14,700 bases of DNA from UHGV virus genome UHGV-0187445; one strand, written 5' to 3'. This document shows positions 2,274 through 14,274 of the stretch, in pieces; position 1 is the stretch's first letter, and every line of letters begins with the position of its first letter. The notes beneath the pieces were generated by a model. The model had not been told where the DNA came from, made no database searches, and saw only the letters and a program-made list of their open reading frames with translations. This DNA comes from a virus. Both the position numbers and the translations under genes were made by a program.

Positions 2274-2840
2274 TCAGGGGGATTCATTGATCTTATTTGC
2301 CGGAAATTTTCTATAAATGGTAGAAACGCCTACATCAAAAATCAGTGCAATACGCTGTCTTGATTCTCCGGCCTCGAGTAAACGCCCAATCTGTGCCCAC
2401 TGTTCGGTGGTCAACTTAGGACGGCGTCCACCTACTCTGCCTTTGGCACGAGCTGCAGCCAGCCCTGCCCTGGTACGTTCAACTATCAGTTCGCGTTCCA
2501 TTTCAGCCAGGGCACCCATGACATGAAAAAAGAAACGGCCCATTGGGGTACTGGTATCAATACTGTCAGTCAGGCTTCTGAAATTCACACCACGCTGGCG
2601 CAACTCTTCTATCAGCGTAACAAGATGCCGCATACTGCGCCCCAACCTGTCCAGCTTCCAGACAACCAGCGTGTCTCCTGCCGATAGTGTCCTGAGTAGT
2701 TTTTTCAGCCCCGGTCTGTCGGACTTAGTGCCACTGATTTTGTCCTCAAAAATCCGCTCACATCCCGCGCAGTTCAGTGCATTACGTTGCAAATCGGTGT
2801 TCTGGTCATTTGTTGACACGCGTACATAGCCAATAAGCAT
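2274..2840 (-). CDS. Serine DNA invertase (Hin/Gin/Pin/Cin family), invertase A
   Basis: 188 aa from ATG at 2840 (AGGGGG RBS 6 nt upstream; ORF track start 2846 is 2 codons further). MLIGYVRVSTNDQ catalytic-serine N-terminus, ...GRFFFHVMGALAEMERELIVERT... and C-terminal HTH region typical of the family. Confidence 0.9.
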   Translation of the reverse strand: MLIGYVRVSTNDQNTDLQRNALNCAGCERIFEDKISGTKSDRPGLKKLLRTLSAGDTLVVWKLDRLGRSMRHLVTLIEELRQRGVNFRSLTDSIDTSTPMGRFFFHVMGALAEMERELIVERTRAGLAAARAKGRVGGRRPKLTTEQWAQIGRLLEAGESRQRIALIFDVGVSTIYRKFPANKINESP

Positions 2841-2867
2841 GATCATCCCCCTGAATAAAAACCGGAG

Positions 2868-3389
2868 ATGATGCCAGTTAGCTGTTACCTCTGCATTTTC
2901 TTAAACGTTGGTTTAGGGGAAGGCTCTGCGCTGCCTGTTGGTGTGCCTGTTCCATGGCCTTCAGCCACACCGCCAACAGGCTGGCTGAAATGCAACGGTG
3001 CGGCTTTTTCTGCTGAAGATTACCCTAATCTGGCAAAGGCTTACCCGACGTTAAAATTGCCTGATTTACGCGGTGAGTTTATTCGTGGCTGGGATGGTGG
3101 AAAGGGAGTGGATAGTGGGCGAACTCTGCTTTCAGCACAAGGAGATGCTATCCGAAACATTACCGGGGTGGTTGGCTACAGTTCAATTGGCGATTCACAA
3201 GGGTTATTAGGATACGTGTCAGGGGCCTTTTCGGCTTCGGAGTCAAAAGCTCCCGCATTAAGTGGTGCATCAGCATCCGGGTATCAACGCTCCCTGTATG
3301 CGAATTTTAATGCTTCAGCCGTTGTCCCAACCGCAAATGAGAACCGCCCACGTAACATTGCCTTTAATTATATTGTGAGGGCTGCATAA
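2868..3389 (+). CDS. Tail fibre variable C-terminal cassette (tail-collar-type domain), lacking a constant N-terminal fibre region
   Basis: 173 aa; ...PVGVPVPWPS...GWLKCNGAAFSAEDYPNLAKAYP...LPDLRGEFIRGWD... and C-terminal ...NIAFNYIVRAA resemble Mu S / P1 S-type fibre C-termini; in-frame stop only 3 codons upstream of ATG (2856..2858). Confidence 0.75.
   Translation: MMPVSCYLCIFLNVGLGEGSALPVGVPVPWPSATPPTGWLKCNGAAFSAEDYPNLAKAYPTLKLPDLRGEFIRGWDGGKGVDSGRTLLSAQGDAIRNITGVVGYSSIGDSQGLLGYVSGAFSASESKAPALSGASASGYQRSLYANFNASAVVPTANENRPRNIAFNYIVRAA
2896..2921. repeat. hix/gix-like 26 bp recombination site, left (TTTTCTTAAACG TT GGTTTAGGGGAA; core TT at 2908..2909)
   Basis: Half-sites show 8/12 dyad symmetry around a 2 bp core; resembles Hin-family crossover sites; 55 bp from invertase A start. 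Confidence 0.65.
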
Positions 3390-3991
3390 TGGATAACGCT
3401 GTATTAAATAGCGAGATTATTGCCACGAAGGCAGGGAATATTACCGTCTATAACTATGATGGTGAAATACGGGAATATATTTCCACTTCAAATGAATATC
3501 TTGCCGTTGGTGTTGGTATCCCGGCATATTCCTGTTTAGATTCACCAGGCACATATAAGGCTGGTTATGCTATCTGCCGTTCTGCAGATTTTAACTCATG
3601 GGAATATGTGCCAGACCATCGCGGTGAAATCGTCTATAACACCGAAACGGGAGAAGCCAAAGAAATCACAACTCCGGGTGATTACCCTGAAAATACAACC
3701 ACTATCGCCCCGTTAACGCCATACGATAAATGGGATGGTGAGAAATGGGTGACCGATACTGAGGCACAGCACGGCGCAGCAGTAGATGCAGCAGAAGCAC
3801 AGCGCCAGTCGCTGATTGATACTGCAATGGCCTCCATCAGTCTGATTCAACTGAAATTACAGGCCGGACGGAAGCTGACGCAGGCAGAAACAACCCGCCT
3901 TAACACTGTGCTGGATTACATTGACGTGGTGACGGCAACAGATACCAGCACAGCGCCGGACGTCATCTGGCCTGAACTGCCGGAGGCGTAG
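3389..3991 (+). CDS. Tail fibre assembly chaperone (Tfa/U family)
   Basis: 200 aa; start overlaps upstream stop (TAATG); C-terminal ...DVIWPELPEA motif typical of Tfa proteins. Confidence 0.8.
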   Translation: MDNAVLNSEIIATKAGNITVYNYDGEIREYISTSNEYLAVGVGIPAYSCLDSPGTYKAGYAICRSADFNSWEYVPDHRGEIVYNTETGEAKEITTPGDYPENTTTIAPLTPYDKWDGEKWVTDTEAQHGAAVDAAEAQRQSLIDTAMASISLIQLKLQAGRKLTQAETTRLNTVLDYIDVVTATDTSTAPDVIWPELPEA

Positions 3992-4403
3992 GCCATTCAA
4001 TATCTGGCGCACCGGAAGTATCGACCAGTTCCAGTGCGTACAGATAATCCAGCCACAAATTATATTGCGCCAGTTCCTCACCTTTCAGGCGACAAATCGC
4101 CGCTTTACCAGCCCATTGTCTACTGTTCATATAATCGTTGGCCTGATTAATCAATTGCTGCTTTTTAGTTTCGACTGATGCAATTTGTTCTTCACGTGTT
4201 GGCGGTGGAACATCTGCCCATGCTGGCATTCCATCGTCTCCGGTAATTCTGTACTTACCGTCAGGCGGCGTATCATGGAAATATTCCCTGAAAATAGCTT
4301 CGTCTATATCCACGCCTTTACCTTCGGGCCATTGGCCTTTTGCAGCGTAAACAGACTGGAGGGCATAAGGGTACGCCAGATTATCAACATACAAATATTT
4401 CAT
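3963..4403 (-). CDS. Alternative tail fibre assembly chaperone (Tfa/U' family)
   Basis: 146 aa; C-terminal ...DIEWPTPP... motif; convergent with and overlapping the other tfa by 29 bp. Confidence 0.8.
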   Translation of the reverse strand: MKYLYVDNLAYPYALQSVYAAKGQWPEGKGVDIDEAIFREYFHDTPPDGKYRITGDDGMPAWADVPPPTREEQIASVETKKQQLINQANDYMNSRQWAGKAAICRLKGEELAQYNLWLDYLYALELVDTSGAPDIEWPTPPAVQAR

Positions 4404-4405
4404 AA

Positions 4406-4735
4406 TTAACGCCCTTTCGCGTAGAAGGCTCCACCTTCAAAGCCATAGTTACAATGAGCAACGAAACCTGTTTTCGTCCAGTTAGTTGCGCCCCACATAT
4501 TCCCACCACCAAAACCGCCGTCATATACAATCACTACGTCTGGCTCCTGCGTAAAAGGAATGGTGAAAGTCACATTTGTAGATACCGCCGCGGCGTTATT
4601 CGGGAAATTAATTCTTCCCCACTGTTCAATTGAACCATCAGGCAATTTTTGCCAGCCAGATCCTGATGAATAAGCTGACATATCAGGTATCTGATTTTCC
4701 CCTGTTCCCACATTCCGTTTTGCCGCTTCTCCCAA
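4406..4735 (-). CDS. Alternative tail fibre variable C-terminal cassette (no ATG; ORF-track start is TTG; frame open only to 4759)
   Basis: 109 aa C-terminal glycine-rich fibre tip; N-terminus (..CIFKNVGLGE..) is encoded by the right crossover site and matches the left cassette's CIFLNVGLGE; stop at 4760..4762 immediately outside. Confidence 0.7.
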   Translation of the reverse strand: MGEAAKRNVGTGENQIPDMSAYSSGSGWQKLPDGSIEQWGRINFPNNAAAVSTNVTFTIPFTQEPDVVIVYDGGFGGGNMWGATNWTKTGFVAHCNYGFEGGAFYAKGR

Positions 4736-4806: not shown

Positions 4807-5388
4807 ATGCTTATTGGATATGTGCGCGTATCAACAAATGACCAGAACACGGCTTTGCAACGTGATGCGCTTGAGCGGTCAGGATGTGAGCTAATTTTTG
4901 AAGATAAAATGAGCGGGAGAACAGCGGAAAGGCCAGGGCTTAAAAAATTACTAAAGCGCCTTTCTCCAGAAGATACGCTTGTTGTCTGGAAGCTGGATCG
5001 TCTTGGGCGGAGTATGCGGAACTTGGTCATTCTGGTGGAGGAACTAAAGCAACGTTCCGTGAACTTCCGCAGCCTGACTGACAGTATTGATACCTCAACA
5101 CCAATGGGGCGTTTCTTTTTTCATGTTATGGGAGCACTGGCAGAGATGGAGAGAGAATTGATTGTCGAGCGTACGCGTGCAGGACTGGTGGCCGCTCGCG
5201 CGCAGGGAAGGATCGGCGGTAGACGTCCAAAACTAACACCAGAACAATGGGCGCAGGCGGGTAGGTTAATAGCGGCAGGGGAATCGCGCCGGAGGGTTGC
5301 CATAATTTATGATGTTGGGATATCTACGCTTTACAAAAAATTCCCAGCGACCAGAGATAAGAATTCCGGCACGCATGGCCGGTTATAA
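4807..5388 (+). CDS. Serine DNA invertase (Hin/Gin/Pin/Cin family), invertase B
   Basis: 193 aa; AAGGAA RBS; about 80% amino-acid identity by eye to invertase A, in opposite orientation. Confidence 0.9.
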   Translation: MLIGYVRVSTNDQNTALQRDALERSGCELIFEDKMSGRTAERPGLKKLLKRLSPEDTLVVWKLDRLGRSMRNLVILVEELKQRSVNFRSLTDSIDTSTPMGRFFFHVMGALAEMERELIVERTRAGLVAARAQGRIGGRRPKLTPEQWAQAGRLIAAGESRRRVAIIYDVGISTLYKKFPATRDKNSGTHGRL

Positions 5389-11235: not shown

Positions 11236-12354
11236 ATGGACACGACAGAAAACCGATATTCGCCGCGCCCGGCGTTCAGTATTGAGATTGAAGGTAAGCA
11301 GCTTACGGCGCTGGATAACCGGCTGATCTCCCTTTCCCTGACAGATAACCGGGGCTTTGAAGCGGACACGCTGGATCTGACTCTGGATGATGCAGACGGG
11401 CAGGTAGCCTTACCATCACGCGGCGCAAAGATATCGGTGGCGCTGGGCTGGGATAATGATCCATTGGTTTTTAAGGGCGTGTATACGGTTGACGAGATCG
11501 GACACTCTGGCCCGCCTGACCAGCTAACGATCAGTGCCAGAAGCGCAGATTTCCGCGATACCTTTAACGTGAAGAGGGAATATAGCTGGCACGATATTAC
11601 CGTGGGGGATGTGGTTGCCAGCATTGCCAGCCGTTACGATCTGCGTGCGGGCGTCAGCGAAGAACTGGCGAAGATTGAGATAGATCACGCCGATCAGACG
11701 AGTGAATCAGATATCAGCTTCTTAACGCGCATGGCCGAAATGCTGGGCGCGGTGGCAACCATTAAAAACGGTATGCTTCTGTTTATCACGCCGGGCAAGG
11801 GAGTAACGCAGAGCGGCAAGCCGCTGCCGGTGATCGAGATAGTCCGGTCAAGCGGTGATAAACATCGGTTTAACGTAGCTGACCGCGACGCGTACACGGG
11901 CGTAACTGCATACTGGCTTGATCTCAACTTTGGCAAGAAACCATCCACTACCGTGAAGAAAACCACCCGCAGGCGACGAACCAGCCAGGCCAAAAAGAAA
12001 GAACCCGCATCAAGCAAAAAAGAAGGGGATTATCTGGCCGGGGCCGAAGGCAACGTTTTTGTTATCCGTAAAACCTTCAAGACGGAAAAGGCGGCAAAGC
12101 GTGCCGCAGCGGCTAAGTGGCGGGAGTTGCAGCGCGGGGCGGCTACGTTCAGCATCACCCTGGCGCGTGGGCGCGCGGATTTGTACCCGGAACAGCCAGC
12201 CAGTGTTTATGGGTTTAAGTCCACGATCGACAGTGGAAGCTGGACGATAACACGGTGCGTTCACGATGTTGGCGGGGGAGGGTTTACCACGTCGCTGGAA
12301 CTGGAAGTAAAAATCGACGACTGGACAGCGGAGAGTGACGATTCAACGTCTTAA
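11236..12354 (+). CDS. D: Phage late control / tail protein gpD (P2 D family)
   Basis: 372 aa; ...DLTLDDADGQVALPSRGAKISVALGW...GPPDQLTISARSADFRDTFNVKREYSW...DAYTGVTAYW... typical of P2 D; GAAGGGG RBS. Confidence 0.85.
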   Translation: MDTTENRYSPRPAFSIEIEGKQLTALDNRLISLSLTDNRGFEADTLDLTLDDADGQVALPSRGAKISVALGWDNDPLVFKGVYTVDEIGHSGPPDQLTISARSADFRDTFNVKREYSWHDITVGDVVASIASRYDLRAGVSEELAKIEIDHADQTSESDISFLTRMAEMLGAVATIKNGMLLFITPGKGVTQSGKPLPVIEIVRSSGDKHRFNVADRDAYTGVTAYWLDLNFGKKPSTTVKKTTRRRRTSQAKKKEPASSKKEGDYLAGAEGNVFVIRKTFKTEKAAKRAAAAKWRELQRGAATFSITLARGRADLYPEQPASVYGFKSTIDSGSWTITRCVHDVGGGGFTTSLELEVKIDDWTAESDDSTS

Positions 12355-12402
12355 GCGTTATACTTGCGTTGATATTAACCAGTCATGAAAGGAGGCCCGC
12401 GT

Positions 12403-12645
12403 ATGGCAATGCGCTGTCCTCGCTGCCGTGCTATAGCAAAAACCAGAACCAGCGTTGAGCTGAGTTTGCTTGTACGGCGCAGCTATCACCAGTGTCAAAA
12501 CATGTTATGCGGGTACTGTTTCACCAGCATGACGGAAATAGACGGTTCATTAAACCAGACCCAGCCAGCGCCCGGCGCGATGGTGCCACAAGAAGCTTTT
12601 CCACGAAGTCACCACGGCGAAGATCAGCTATCGCTGGCACTGTAA
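12403..12645 (+). CDS. ogr: Late-gene transcriptional activator, Ogr/Delta zinc-finger family
   Basis: 80 aa from ATG at 12403 (AAAGGAGG RBS 7 nt upstream); CPRC ... HQCQNMLC Cys4 motif matching the Ogr ...YHQCQN.C signature; follows D as in P2. Confidence 0.8.
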   Translation: MAMRCPRCRAIAKTRTSVELSLLVRRSYHQCQNMLCGYCFTSMTEIDGSLNQTQPAPGAMVPQEAFPRSHHGEDQLSLAL

Positions 12646-12647
12646 AA

Positions 12648-12676
12648 ATAACCCGCCTACATGGCGGGTTTCTTAT
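12648..12676 (+). terminator. Rho-independent terminator after ogr (ACCCGCC-tacat-GGCGGGT then TTCTTAT)
   Basis: Hairpin plus U-rich tract seen directly, 5 nt after ogr stop. Confidence 0.6.
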
Positions 12677-12734
12677 ACCTGTTACCCCTGATATTATTTT
12701 TCAACTTTCACAGTGGTGCTTAAAAGGTAGGGAT

Positions 12735-13118
12735 ATGAAAAAGTTAATCATGGTACTTGCGCTGTTTAGCCTTGTTGGATGTAAGCCCGGTGCTGATAAA
12801 GCGGTTGAGTTGGGGCAGAAAGAAGTTGCTTCAAGTATGCGCGATCCTGATAGCGCGAAATTCAGGTATGTACGTTTTGTTCAGAAAGACGAAGCTGCTG
12901 ATGGTGCTGTTGTCGGTTACGTCTGCGGGCAGGTAAACGCCAAAAATGCGTTTGGTGCGTATGCTGGTTTTGCACCTTTTGAAATGGAATTGTCGATGAA
13001 GTCGAAGGGGTTCTTCTCAAAAGGGGTAACTTACTCTGTATTTAACAAGCAACTGTATTCAGACCCAGGACAGGTAAACATGGCCGAATATACGAAGAAG
13101 TGCGGCCCTGATCAATAG
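12735..13118 (+). CDS. Small lipoprotein of unknown function (signal peptide with lipobox LVGC); candidate prophage cargo
   Basis: 127 aa from ATG at 12735 (GGTAGGG RBS); MKKLIMVLALFSLVGC lipoprotein signal; no family recognised by eye. Confidence 0.65.
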   Translation: MKKLIMVLALFSLVGCKPGADKAVELGQKEVASSMRDPDSAKFRYVRFVQKDEAADGAVVGYVCGQVNAKNAFGAYAGFAPFEMELSMKSKGFFSKGVTYSVFNKQLYSDPGQVNMAEYTKKCGPDQ

Positions 13119-13145
13119 GTTAAGTTTTAGGCAAATGTTTGAATA

Positions 13146-13170
13146 GACCGGGCAGAAGCCCGGCTTTTTT
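13146..13170 (+). terminator. Rho-independent terminator after lipoprotein gene (GACCGGGC-agaa-GCCCGGC then TTTTTT)
   Basis: Perfect GC-rich hairpin plus T6 seen directly. Confidence 0.7.
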
Positions 13171-13261
13171 CTGTCGAAGTGTAGTCAAAATGTAGACGAA
13201 GATTAGAATAAATCCTTTTATTCCATTGTGTTACTGGCTGGATTTCTTCACCATCCCTGTC

Positions 13262-13290
13262 TTCCCCCACATGATGTGGGGGTTTTTTTT
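13262..13290 (+). terminator. Strong stand-alone rho-independent terminator (CCCCCAC-atgat-GTGGGGG then T8); no ORF upstream
   Basis: Hairpin plus T8 seen directly, about 90 bp after the previous terminator and about 80 bp before fieF. Confidence 0.65.
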
Positions 13291-13371
13291 ATCCTCAATT
13301 TGCCTGCTGCTTAATGCATTGCAGATGATTTGCTTCCGTTATACTAGCGTCAGTTGATAGCGGGAGTATTT

Positions 13372-14274
13372 ATGAATCAATCTTATGGACGGCTGGTCAG
13401 TCGGGCGGCGATTGCTGCGACGGCGATGGCTTCGTTGCTATTGCTGATTAAAATTTTTGCATGGTGGTATACCGGGTCGGTGAGTATTCTCGCCGCGCTG
13501 GTGGATTCGCTGGTGGATATCGGCGCGTCGTTGACGAATTTACTGGTGGTGCGATATTCCCTGCAACCTGCCGACGATAATCACTCGTTTGGTCACGGTA
13601 AAGCTGAGTCCCTCGCGGCGCTGGCGCAAAGTATGTTTATCTCCGGTTCGGCACTATTCCTGTTTTTGACGGGTATTCAACATCTGATATCTCCAACACC
13701 GATGACAGATCCAGGCGTTGGGGTTATCGTGACAATTGTGGCGCTAATTTGTACGATTATCCTTGTCTCGTTTCAGCGTTGGGTGGTGCGGCGGACGCAA
13801 AGCCAGGCGGTGCGGGCTGATATGCTACATTACCAGTCTGATGTTATGATGAACGGTGCAATTCTGCTGGCGCTGGGGTTGTCCTGGTACGGCTGGCATC
13901 GCGCCGATGCTCTGTTTGCATTGGGAATCGGCATCTATATTTTATATAGCGCGTTACGCATGGGATATGAGGCGGTACAGTCATTACTGGATCGCGCATT
14001 GCCTGATGAGGAACGGCAAGAAATTATTGATATCGTGACTTCCTGGCCGGGTGTTAGCGGCGCTCACGATCTTCGCACGCGGCAGTCAGGGCCGACCCGC
14101 TTTATTCAGATTCATTTGGAAATGGAAGACTCTCTGCCTTTGGTTCAGGCACATATGGTGGCGGATCAGGTAGAGCAGGCTATTTTACGGCGTTTTCCGG
14201 GATCGGATGTGATTATCCATCAGGACCCCTGTTCCGTCGTACCCAGGGAGGGTAAACGGTCTATGCTTTCATAA
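13372..14274 (+). CDS. fieF: Ferrous-iron/zinc efflux cation diffusion facilitator FieF (YiiP)
   Basis: 300 aa from [13 protein letters not shown]...; recognised as E. coli FieF; ORF-track start at 13354 is an upstream in-frame extension. Confidence 0.93.

What the first reader, a model, noticed from the sequence alone, without database searches (positions are those of the whole stretch)
12677..13170. Uncharacterised lipoprotein gene between ogr and the host boundary (candidate moron)
A 127 aa ORF with a textbook lipoprotein signal (MKKLIMVLALFSLVGC), its own RBS and a strong terminator sits where P2 itself has only the attachment site. I recall cpxP lying directly upstream of fieF in E. coli K-12 with no such gene, so this looks like accessory cargo carried at the prophage end. 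Small phage-encoded lipoproteins in this position often act in superinfection exclusion or receptor masking, but nothing in the sequence identifies its function.
Basis: partly seen in the sequence, partly recalled or inferred. Interest (0 to 1): 0.5.

Follow-up and report, generated by a model that had tools for sequence, protein, structure and literature searches.

The report
Phage cargo lipoprotein beside attachment site
The gene is real and is optional cargo of a P2-like prophage; it encodes a small outer-membrane lipoprotein from a widespread, unstudied phage family whose function is untested and which I guess, at about 0.3, acts at the cell-wall layer to exclude other phages.

Summary
Confirmed. 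Window 12735-13118 (+) encodes a 127-aa protein with a lipoprotein signal (LVGC). It is under strong purifying selection (dN/dS 0.04 against Salmonella phage SEN5) and has lower GC than the prophage (45.6% vs 53.5%).

It is phage cargo, not a host gene:
- It occurs in 10 (plus 2 diverged copies) of 5426 complete E. coli genomes, always after ogr in a SEN4/5-like P2-type prophage inserted in the cpxQ terminator (45-bp core, 13249-13293).
- Sister prophages have the ogr-att slot empty or filled with unrelated genes.
- Homologues follow ogr in Serratia, Klebsiella and Enterobacter prophages at other host sites.
- In HK97-like siphophages they lie beside the tape-measure gene, the HK97 gp15 moron slot. 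They also occur on SSU5-like phage-plasmids.

The protein belongs to PHROG 2320 (unknown function) and has no Pfam, NCBIfam or PADLOC match. The AlphaFold model is a generic NTF2/cystatin-like fold.

Its core motif defines a large unnamed periplasmic superfamily. Some members are fused to SPOR, PG_binding_1, SH3 or M23 peptidoglycan modules.

Best guess (probability about 0.3): an envelope-level superinfection-exclusion factor acting at the peptidoglycan layer. This is a new member of a known kind; interest is moderate.

The parts
12646..13145 (+). Cargo cassette (moron): everything between the ogr stop codon and the backbone terminator
   Evidence: Aligned with the empty-slot prophage of strain SWYHX138 and with the TOK-001 prophage, which carries other cargo. 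Identity stops at the ogr stop codon and resumes at the 13148 hairpin. GC is 45.6% for the ORF against 53.5% for the rest of the prophage.
12650..12670 (+). Hairpin AACCCGCC-TACAT-GGCGGGTT directly after ogr; left end of the cassette and probably a weak or leaky ogr terminator
   Evidence: The scan reports it on the minus strand; on the plus strand the T tail is poor. It is conserved in SEN5, Serratia and TOK-001 but absent from the empty-slot prophage.
12724..12732 (+). Ribosome-binding site AAGGTAGGG
   Evidence: Read directly from the sequence. GGTAGGGATATG is conserved in 5 of 6 homologous loci.
12735..13118 (+). Lipoprotein gene, 127 aa plus stop (identical to RefSeq WP_021567699.1, annotated 'hypothetical protein')
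   Evidence: PHROG 2320 at E=1e-36. 98.4% identical to SEN5_30. dN/dS 0.04.
12735..12782 (+). Signal peptide with lipobox L-V-G-C (residues 1-16); Cys16 is the predicted lipid-attachment residue and Lys17 sits at +2
   Evidence: Read directly from the sequence. L13, G15, C16 and K17 are at least 90% conserved in 47 homologues. The absence of Asp at +2 implies Lol sorting to the outer membrane (established E. coli rule; inference here).
13148..13170 (+). Intrinsic terminator (6 G-C pairs, loop AGAA, T run); it belongs to the phage backbone
   Evidence: It is retained directly after ogr in empty-slot prophages.
13180..13197 (+). Direct repeats TGTAGTC-AAAA-TGTAGAC, a probable arm-type integrase binding site of the P arm
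   Evidence: The same TGTAGAC repeats lie next to int in SEN5 attP and at attL. That they bind integrase is inferred.
13249..13293 (+). att core (attR copy): CACCATCCCTGTCTTCCCCCACATGATGTGGGGGTTTTTTTTATC, i.e. the 3' 42 nt of cpxQ including its terminator, plus 3 nt
   Evidence: An exact 45-bp repeat is found at attL next to cpxP in strain 0H26. It overlaps the K-12 cpxQ annotation.

Best explanation
SHOWN:
- This is a self-contained cargo cassette in the variable ogr-attP slot of a SEN4/5-like (Peduoviridae) prophage.
- It encodes a secreted lipoprotein of a conserved phage family (PHROG 2320).

INFERRED FROM SEQUENCE RULES AND THE MODEL:
- The mature ~111-aa domain faces the periplasm. It folds as one helix packed on a four-stranded antiparallel sheet plus a C-terminal helix.
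- Conserved Cys64 and Cys123 may form a disulfide; this was not checked in the model.
- The two conserved motifs (DPxSAxF and N-x-K-N-x-x-G-A-Y-x-G) lie at the same end of the sheet.

INFERRED FUNCTION (about 0.3): the protein acts at the peptidoglycan layer, binding the wall or neutralising a wall-degrading or wall-penetrating activity. By doing so it protects the lysogen from superinfecting phages after adsorption. This would be envelope-level superinfection exclusion aimed at a conserved envelope component, not at one particular receptor.
For: Cargo status:
- The gene is present in 12 of 5426 E. coli genomes. The two loci I opened lie inside a P2-like prophage, and the other matches map beside the same fieF junction.
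- Among sister prophages with the same att arm (38 genomes), the slot is empty or holds one of at least four unrelated cargoes.
- The same D-ogr-lipoprotein-att order is seen in Serratia, Klebsiella and Enterobacter at different host sites.
- GC is 45.6% against 53.5% and dN/dS is 0.04.

Moron behaviour in other phages:
- In 42 of the 80 best IMG/VR loci the gene lies immediately upstream of a Pfam-confirmed tape-measure gene, and in 4 it lies just downstream. It has its own terminator-like hairpin there.
- That slot holds the archetypal moron, HK97 gp15, a superinfection-exclusion gene (PMC3594210).
- The family is also found on SSU5-like phage-plasmids.
- In every locus where the backbone could be recognised it looked like a temperate phage (prophage, lambdoid siphophage or phage-plasmid).

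Envelope and peptidoglycan link:
- The lipobox is conserved.
- Superfamily members replace or supplement the lipid anchor with SPOR, PG_binding_1, SH3_3 or a C-terminal M23 peptidase. SPOR, PG_binding_1 and M23 were checked and exceed Pfam's cut-offs; the SH3_3 match has E=7e-7.
- One M23 fusion sits next to an OLD-family nuclease gene.

Against a receptor-specific role: phages with unrelated tails carry the same family at 48-60% identity (P2-like myoviruses and HK97-like siphophages 52-60%; phage-plasmids 48%). The core motif is nearly invariant across 142 diverse representatives.
Against: - No member of the family has a tested function.
- There is no match in PADLOC.
- No convincing promoter lies upstream, so expression from the repressed prophage is not shown. 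The gene could be expressed only late, by read-through from ogr or the tail operon.
- The alternative cargoes of the slot are not known defence genes.
- Deep conservation of the domain in many non-phage contexts would fit a housekeeping envelope role equally well.
- Domain fusions are circumstantial, and the OLD neighbour is a single case.
- The 80 IMG/VR loci are not independent: 35 of their tape-measure genes fall in one cluster.
Confidence: 0.35

Rival explanations
1. Receptor masking of the Llp/Cor type: the outer-membrane lipoprotein binds the periplasmic face of the phage's own outer-membrane receptor. This inactivates the receptor, blocks superinfection and protects released progeny from cell debris.
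For: It is a small phage-encoded outer-membrane lipoprotein with conserved cysteines. It lies in or after late tail operons, which would fit late expression. Lipoproteins in structural gene clusters of other coliphages have been shown to exclude phages that use the same receptor (PMC11893012).
Against: Similarity to Cor (phrog_1119) is confined to signal-peptide residues 1-19, at E=0.048. The family is shared at 48-60% identity by phages with unrelated tail and receptor-binding apparatus, and its core motif is conserved in representatives labelled from Enterobacteriaceae, Lysobacteraceae and Gallionella and in phages of Pseudomonas, Acinetobacter and Paracoccus; a receptor-specific binder should not behave this way. 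Some members are anchored to peptidoglycan (SPOR, PG_binding_1) rather than to the outer membrane.
Confidence: 0.12
2. A lysogenic-conversion factor unrelated to phages: a Bor/Iss-like envelope lipoprotein that improves host fitness (serum resistance, envelope stress tolerance, adhesion, or immunity to peptidoglycan-degrading toxins such as T6SS effectors or lysozyme).
Against: There is no similarity to Bor/Iss, MliC, Ivy or any known immunity family in Pfam or NCBIfam. The fold matches are generic and weak. There is no direct evidence for any phenotype.
Confidence: 0.25
3. A helper for the phage's own lytic cycle: a late-expressed periplasmic modulator of peptidoglycan hydrolysis (for example tuning endolysin or spanin action, or host hydrolases) that improves lysis timing or release.
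For: It is on the same strand as, and close to, late tail genes in most loci. No clear independent promoter is present in the window. Superfamily members are fused to peptidoglycan modules, including an M23 peptidase.
Against: The gene is dispensable: closely related prophages lack it or carry other genes in its place. It is not located in the lysis cassette, which lies elsewhere (holin, TIGR02594 endolysin, DUF2514). On phage-plasmids it sits in the replication/early region. Terminators bracket it like a moron.
Confidence: 0.13
4. It is a host gene or a non-functional ORF, not phage cargo.
For: None was found beyond the lack of a functional annotation.
Against: It is absent from 5414 of 5426 E. 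coli genomes, and K-12 has nothing between cpxQ and fieF. The 45-bp att repeats place it inside the prophage. Purifying selection is strong and homologues are conserved in four phage backbones.
Confidence: 0.01

Closest known systems
SEN5_30 / SEN4 orthologue (Salmonella phage SEN4/5, Senquatrovirus) and PHROG family phrog_2320
   Same: 98.4% amino-acid identity, the same position between ogr and attP/int, and the same P arm and att core. The PHROG HMM matches over residues 1-126 at E=1e-36.
   Different: Nothing of substance differs; this is the same gene in an E. coli lysogen. The family is annotated 'unknown function', and a term search of the SEN4/5 paper for lipoprotein, ogr, moron and attP found nothing on it (PMC5261728).
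HK97 gp15 moron (superinfection exclusion)
   Same: [quoted passage not shown] Both are small envelope proteins with moron architecture and a downstream terminator.
   Different: gp15 is a YebO-like protein with a single inner-membrane helix. This one is a globular lipoprotein predicted to be in the outer membrane. They are not expected to be related in sequence, although no direct comparison was run. Exclusion has been shown for gp15 and is only hypothesised here.
T5 Llp and phi80/N15 Cor (receptor-blocking lipoproteins)
   Same: [quoted passage not shown]
   Different: Similarity to Cor is limited to the signal peptide (phrog_1119, E=0.048). Llp was not compared directly. This protein is about twice the size, is shared across phages with unrelated tails, and has relatives anchored to peptidoglycan.
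Lambda Bor / Iss (moron outer-membrane lipoprotein, serum resistance)
   Same: A lipoprotein encoded by a prophage moron that could be expressed in lysogens.
   Different: No family in Pfam or NCBIfam matched at all, which would include any Bor/Iss model they hold. No phenotype is known.
NTF2-like / cystatin-like / VirB8-like periplasmic domains (TraE, DotI, TraM, cystatins, latexin)
   Different: Identity is 3-12%, Foldseek finds nothing below E=0.04, and no Pfam model of these families matches. The resemblance is at fold level only and says little about function.
NlpD-type lipoprotein architecture (lipobox, wall-binding domain, LytM/M23)
   Same: Some superfamily members have a lipobox, then this domain, then an M23 peptidase. 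In those proteins this domain takes the place that LysM holds in NlpD (the NlpD architecture is from general knowledge).
   Different: The window protein has no catalytic domain. Whether the shared domain binds peptidoglycan is untested.

Membership tests
PHROG phrog_2320 (phage protein family of unknown function) | Significant full-length match to the family HMM | tested here: met
   E=1e-36, 127 bits, residues 1-126 against profile positions 20-140 of 171.
Bacterial lipoprotein (Lgt/Lsp/Lnt pathway) | N-terminal signal peptide ending in a lipobox [LVI][ASTVI][GAS]C | tested here: met
   MKKLIMVLALFS-LVGC. L13, G15 and C16 are at least 90% conserved in 47 homologues. A looser lipobox-like pattern ([LVIAFMTS][ASGTVI][GAS]C within the first 45 residues) is found in 142 of the 197 family proteins held at that point.
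Bacterial lipoprotein (Lgt/Lsp/Lnt pathway) | Actual lipidation, and outer-membrane sorting (no Asp at +2) | not testable with these tools
   Residue +2 is Lys (conserved), which predicts Lol export. Confirmation needs globomycin or palmitate labelling and membrane fractionation.
Phage moron (Juhala/Hendrix definition) | Inserted between genes or sites that are adjacent in related phages | tested here: met
   In the SWYHX138 and LT883142 prophages, ogr is 21 nt from the terminator/P arm, with no cargo.
Phage moron (Juhala/Hendrix definition) | Base composition different from the surrounding genome | tested here: met
   GC is 45.6% against 53.5% (prophage), 53.6% (ogr) and 54.9% (D).
Phage moron (Juhala/Hendrix definition) | Own terminator | tested here: inconclusive
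   A strong hairpin plus T run follows the gene, but that element belongs to the backbone. In HK97-like loci the gene does have its own terminator-like hairpin before the tape-measure gene.
Phage moron (Juhala/Hendrix definition) | Own promoter and expression from the repressed prophage | tested here: inconclusive
   No sigma-70 match at 9/12 or better lies between ogr and the ATG. Only a TTGATA-like -35 element is shared, exactly in 3 of 6 loci and with one mismatch in 2 more. Expression cannot be tested here.
Cor / Llp receptor-blocking lipoproteins | Sequence or profile similarity of the mature domain | tested here: not met
   The Cor PHROG (phrog_1119) matches only signal-peptide residues 1-19, at E=0.048. 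No phage record annotated as Cor appears among the tblastn hits. Llp was not compared directly.
Known anti-phage defence systems (PADLOC-DB 2.0) | Match to any defence protein model | tested here: not met
   No families matched at E<=10.
Cystatin / VirB8 / NTF2 families | Match to a family profile, or a significant structural match | tested here: not met
P2-like (Peduoviridae) prophage right end | Gene order sheath/tube/E/T, D, ogr, then attachment site, with integrase at the other end | tested here: met
   RefSeq annotation of the identical prophage in strain 0H26, and 45-bp att repeats.

The most novel reading that the evidence does not exclude
The conserved core DPxSAxF...VCGxVNAKNxxGAYxG defines a very large periplasmic domain superfamily with no name and no solved structure. 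It has about 790 clusters at 50% identity at E<=1e-10, and up to about 9000 at E<=1e-3. Temperate phages of many Proteobacteria carry lipid-anchored or peptidoglycan-anchored copies as morons next to tail and tape-measure genes. In this reading they form a new, general class of envelope-level exclusion or immunity factor that works at the peptidoglycan layer, for example by blocking tail-associated wall hydrolases or tail-tip passage. That would make it mechanistically distinct from receptor masks (Llp, Cor) and from inner-membrane blockers (gp15, SieA, Imm).
Probability: 0.2. Interest if true: 0.65.

Novelty: new member of a known kind. Interest (0 to 1): 0.4.

Why it matters
Morons are the main route by which temperate phages change their hosts, and most of them have no known function. 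This one is easy to test:
- It is a single 127-aa gene.
- Natural isogenic-like comparators exist: sister prophages with an empty slot or other cargo.
- A cultivable phage carries the same gene (SEN4/5).

It also belongs to a family that recurs in the classic HK97 gp15 slot and on phage-plasmids. If it excludes phages at the peptidoglycan layer, that would add a new step to the known catalogue of superinfection exclusion. It would also give a first function to a large unnamed periplasmic domain family. If it does nothing to phages, the fusions to SPOR, M23 and PG_binding_1 still point to an uncharacterised player in cell-wall biology.

The ogr-att interval also emerges as a third variable cargo slot in this P2-like lineage. 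It is separate from the two defence hotspots I recall from the literature (tin/old and Z/fun).

Tried and rejected
- Pfam, NCBIfam and PADLOC on the protein gave no hit. Pfam on 142 diverse relatives matched only fusion partners, never the core domain.
- Sequence and profile searches of the PDB gave nothing beyond a signal-peptide match.
- Rfam on 12300-13500 found nothing reaching any family's threshold; in particular no CpxQ model matched.
- Promoter search: nothing convincing upstream of the gene.
- I tested whether the slot is a known defence hotspot. The alternative cargoes (a Zn-ribbon protein plus a VasI/TagO-like protein, a metallophosphoesterase, and two families of hypothetical proteins) do not match PADLOC convincingly.
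- I checked whether the experimentally tested exclusion lipoproteins of mEpimmI phages are relatives. No mEp phage appears among the tblastn hits, and those phages form a different group.
- I checked whether the M23-fused relative sits in an nlpD-like housekeeping locus. It does not; its neighbour is an OLD-family nuclease gene.
- The host-gene and chance-ORF readings are rejected.

Full report
**1. The observation**

The window contains an ORF from ATG 12735 to the stop at 13116-13118. It encodes 127 aa beginning MKKLIMVLALFSLVGC. The longer ORF in the mechanical list (GTG 12492) runs back into ogr and is not the gene. The ATG at 12735 is preceded by AAGGTAGGG, and the block GGTAGGGATATGAA is conserved in homologous loci from five of six taxa. 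A 6-bp all-G-C hairpin and T run follow at 13148-13170.

The ORF is a real gene. Against its orthologue in Salmonella phage SEN5 there are 13 synonymous and 2 non-synonymous differences (dN/dS 0.04). More distant pairs where dS is not saturated give 0.10-0.18. The coordinates and description in the finding are therefore confirmed.

**2. Where the prophage ends**

All 5426 complete E. coli genomes match the right-hand part of a 12650-13360 query, but only 10 cover the gene. In K-12 the order is cpxP, cpxQ, fieF with nothing in between.

I aligned the window, K-12 and the SEN5 attP and compared the two prophage ends in strain 0H26. This gives a 45-bp att core, CACCATCCCTGTCTTCCCCCACATGATGTGGGGGTTTTTTTTATC, at window 13249-13293. 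It is repeated exactly next to cpxP at attL. The core is the 3' 42 nt of the 58-nt sRNA gene cpxQ, including its terminator. CpxQ stays intact at attL with one loop change.

The gene is thus the last gene inside the prophage. It lies 130 bp from the core, and the probable integrase arm repeats (TGTAGTC/TGTAGAC, 13180-13197) lie in between. The prophage is about 32.6 kb. It runs from int beside cpxP to this gene beside fieF, with P2 gene order.

**3. It is cargo**

A DNA search with the gene alone finds it in 10 genomes at 100% identity. It also finds a 68.6%-identical version in two more. The two loci I opened, in strains 0H26 and CFSAN051542, lie between ogr and fieF in a P2-like prophage, and the match coordinates of the others place them beside the same fieF junction.

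The P arm of this att site occurs in 38 genomes and this ogr in 31. The distance between them varies, and so does the content of the interval:
- nothing, with only 21 nt between ogr and the terminator (SWYHX138, LT883142);
- this lipoprotein;
- a Zn-ribbon protein plus a VasI/TagO-like protein (MS 57-2);
- a 237-240-aa hypothetical protein on the other strand (TOK-001, ECONIH4);
- a metallophosphoesterase (ABWA45);
- IS4 plus a 215-aa hypothetical protein.

Alignment with the empty and other-cargo variants puts the cassette edges at the ogr stop codon and just before the 13148 hairpin. That terminator therefore belongs to the backbone, and the hairpin at 12650-12670 came in with the cassette. 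The ORF has 45.6% GC against 53.5% for the prophage. None of the alternative cargoes matches a known defence model convincingly.

**4. The gene follows phages, not host sites**

- The protein is 98.4% identical to SEN5_30 of Salmonella phage SEN4/5 (Peduoviridae, Senquatrovirus), which lies between ogr and attP/int. A term search of the paper describing those phages (lipoprotein, ogr, moron, attP) found nothing on the gene (PMC5261728).
- Homologues of 58-69% identity follow D and ogr at the right end of P2-like prophages. These are integrated next to dapA/bamC in Serratia, yccJ/wrbA in Klebsiella, and a gapA-side locus in Enterobacter.
- A 53%-identical homologue lies in an HK97-like siphophage between the tail assembly chaperone genes (plus a KilA-N gene) and the tape-measure gene.
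Among the 80 best loci, 42 have the gene immediately upstream of a large ORF on the same strand. Representatives of those ORFs are Pfam-confirmed tape-measure proteins. Four more lie just downstream of one, and 10 are in the P2-like D-ogr setting. These loci are not independent, since 35 of the tape-measure genes form one cluster.
- In the HK97-like loci a terminator-like hairpin separates the gene from the tape-measure gene.
- More distant members again sit in tail modules. One follows a tape-measure gene. A SPOR-fused one precedes a tape-measure gene. Others lie between tail genes K and I in Escherichia phage Fraca and Pseudomonas phage AUS531phi, beside the tape-measure gene of Paracoccus phage Pkon1, and after the tail-tip gene in an Acinetobacter phage.
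- A 48%-identical version matches plasmid records, 95 of the 165 matching records being from Escherichia. The 23 E. coli and E. fergusonii records listed are 104-120 kb, and 147 of the 165 are typed non-mobilizable. The one I opened has a DnaB-like helicase and a DNA ligase, like SSU5-type phage-plasmids.

The slot between the chaperone and tape-measure genes is where the first described moron lies. That moron is HK97 gene 15, a superinfection-exclusion gene (PMC3594210).

**5. The protein**

The lipobox LVGC is conserved, and Lys follows the lipid cysteine. By the E. coli +2 rule this predicts sorting to the outer membrane; that is an inference.

AlphaFold2 with 47 homologues gives pLDDT 83.9 and pTM 0.75. 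The elements are helix 20-33, strands 42-53, 59-68, 80-90 and 98-107, and helix 116-123. Cys64 and Cys123 are at least 90% conserved. A disulfide between them is plausible for a periplasmic protein, but I could not check the distance in the model.

By strand topology, the two conserved motifs lie at the same end of the sheet. They are residues 37-44 (DPDSAKFR) and 68-78 (NAKNAFGAYAG).

Database results:
- Pfam, NCBIfam and PADLOC do not match.
- PHROG 2320 (unknown function) matches at E=1e-36, and several other unknown-function PHROGs match the N-terminal half.
- No solved structure is related by sequence.
- Foldseek finds nothing below E=0.04.
- BFVD returns only uncharacterised phage lipoproteins.

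**6. The superfamily**

A profile search of 1.84 billion cluster representatives finds 787 proteins at E<=1e-10 and 8967 at E<=1e-3, but only 6 at E<=1e-30. The weakest hits may lean on the signal peptide.

Most are proteins of 100-170 aa with a lipoprotein or Sec signal. In 142 diverse representatives, N71 and G78 are invariant. D37, P38, S40, F43, C64, G65, N68, K70, G74, Y76, F82 and C123 are at least 90% conserved. No Pfam model covers this core.

The fusion partners are informative:
- C-terminal SPOR, in 5 of 142 representatives and in Pseudomonas phage AUS531phi;
- N-terminal PG_binding_1, in Paracoccus phage Pkon1;
- SH3_3;
- C-terminal Peptidase_M23, with the order lipobox, this domain, then M23.

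The SPOR, PG_binding_1 and M23 matches that I checked exceed Pfam's cut-offs; the SH3_3 match has E=7e-7. Four different peptidoglycan-related partners place the domain's action at the cell-wall layer. One M23 fusion lies next to an OLD-family nuclease gene, a single hint of a defence neighbourhood.

**7. How it most likely works**

Shown: an optional, mobile, selectively maintained phage cassette that encodes a secreted lipoprotein.

Inferred from rules and the model: outer-membrane anchoring, periplasmic orientation, and a compact domain with one conserved face, possibly held by a disulfide.

Inferred from context: a role for the lysogen or infected cell rather than for the virion. The protein is exported and dispensable, and wherever the backbone could be recognised it was a temperate phage.

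I commit, at about 0.3, to envelope-level superinfection exclusion acting at the peptidoglycan layer on a conserved component. This would mean binding the wall or neutralising a wall-degrading or wall-penetrating activity of incoming tails.

The main reasons to prefer this over a receptor mask of the Llp/Cor type are:
- phages with unrelated tails share the family at 48-60% identity;
- the motif is deeply conserved;
- some members swap the lipid anchor for peptidoglycan anchors.

The main weaknesses are:
- no tested homologue exists;
- there is no PADLOC match;
- no clear promoter is present, so expression may be late only;
- a housekeeping envelope role fits the breadth of the superfamily equally well.

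The rivals, scored in the report sections, are a phage-unrelated fitness or immunity factor (0.25), a helper of the phage's own lysis (0.13), and receptor masking (0.12).

**8. Comparison with what is known, and novelty**

By membership, this is the E. coli copy of SEN5_30 and a member of phrog_2320, both annotated as unknown. By kind, it is a moron-encoded envelope lipoprotein, a well-known category that includes Bor, Cor and Llp. It fails every sequence or fold test for membership in the families I could test (Cor, cystatin, VirB8 and NTF2; Bor and Llp were not compared directly), and it is unrelated in kind to HK97 gp15, whose slot it shares.

I rate it a new member of a known kind. A specialist would not be surprised by a lipoprotein moron at a P2-like prophage end. 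The more interesting points go beyond the original finding:
- the size of the unnamed domain family and its peptidoglycan fusions;
- its recurrent placement beside tape-measure genes;
- the ogr-att interval as a cassette-exchange slot.

Interest 0.4.

Noticed in passing
window 13249-13293 (attR core); L112 about 17290-17340 (attL): The prophage integrates into the sRNA gene cpxQ, in the cpxP 3' UTR. The 45-bp core is the 3' 42 nt of cpxQ including its terminator. CpxQ is rebuilt at attL with one loop change (C to A). A chimeric phage-arm/CpxQ-3' sequence is left upstream of fieF at attR. No Rfam family, CpxQ included, reached its threshold in this stretch.
   Followed up: partly
window 12646-13145 and loci L004, L017-L021: In this P2-like lineage the ogr-attP interval is a cassette-exchange slot with sharp edges: the ogr stop codon on the left and the backbone terminator on the right. 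Among sister prophages with the same att arm (38 E. coli genomes) it is empty or holds one of at least five different cargoes. It is separate from the tin/old and Z/fun hotspots I recall for P2.
   Followed up: yes
L017 2862-3838 (E. coli MS 57-2 prophage): One alternative cargo of the slot is a two-gene unit: a 110-aa zinc-ribbon protein plus a 210-aa VasI/TagO-like (PF11319) protein. That family is normally associated with type VI secretion, and here it sits on a phage.
   Followed up: partly
window 2274-2846 (-) and 4807-5388 (+), bracketing 2868-4735: Two DNA-invertase genes in opposite orientation (543-nt arms, 73% complementary) flank the tail-fibre and tail-fibre-assembly segment. This suggests an invertible host-range switch with two recombinases. 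In strain 0H26, whose prophage matches the window at 99.9% over the 711-nt stretch compared (12650-13360), only one recombinase gene is annotated in the corresponding region.
   Followed up: no
L010 4274-4804; L116 5242-6027; L028 1051-2483: In siphophages from E. coli and Paracoccus, and on one metagenome contig, the family gene lies close to KilA-N, Arc or AntA-type genes inserted beside the tape-measure gene. This suggests a larger multi-gene moron block that travels together.
   Followed up: no
L112 8091-9731 (strain 0H26 prophage, between portal gene Q and replication gene A): The classic P2 tin/old hotspot of this prophage holds an ImmA/IrrE metallopeptidase gene plus a 212-aa hypothetical gene. 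This may be a further cargo or defence pair.
   Followed up: no
L117 1125-3697: A relative with the architecture lipobox, this domain, then M23 peptidase lies directly upstream of an OLD-family (AAA_15 plus OLD-like TOPRIM) nuclease gene on a metagenome contig.
   Followed up: partly
L002 5788-5907 (SEN5_29): In the SEN5 GenBank record, the feature noted as 'late control protein ogr' is a 120-nt CDS on the opposite strand. The real ogr reading frame, identical in layout to window 12403-12645, is not annotated there.
   Followed up: no
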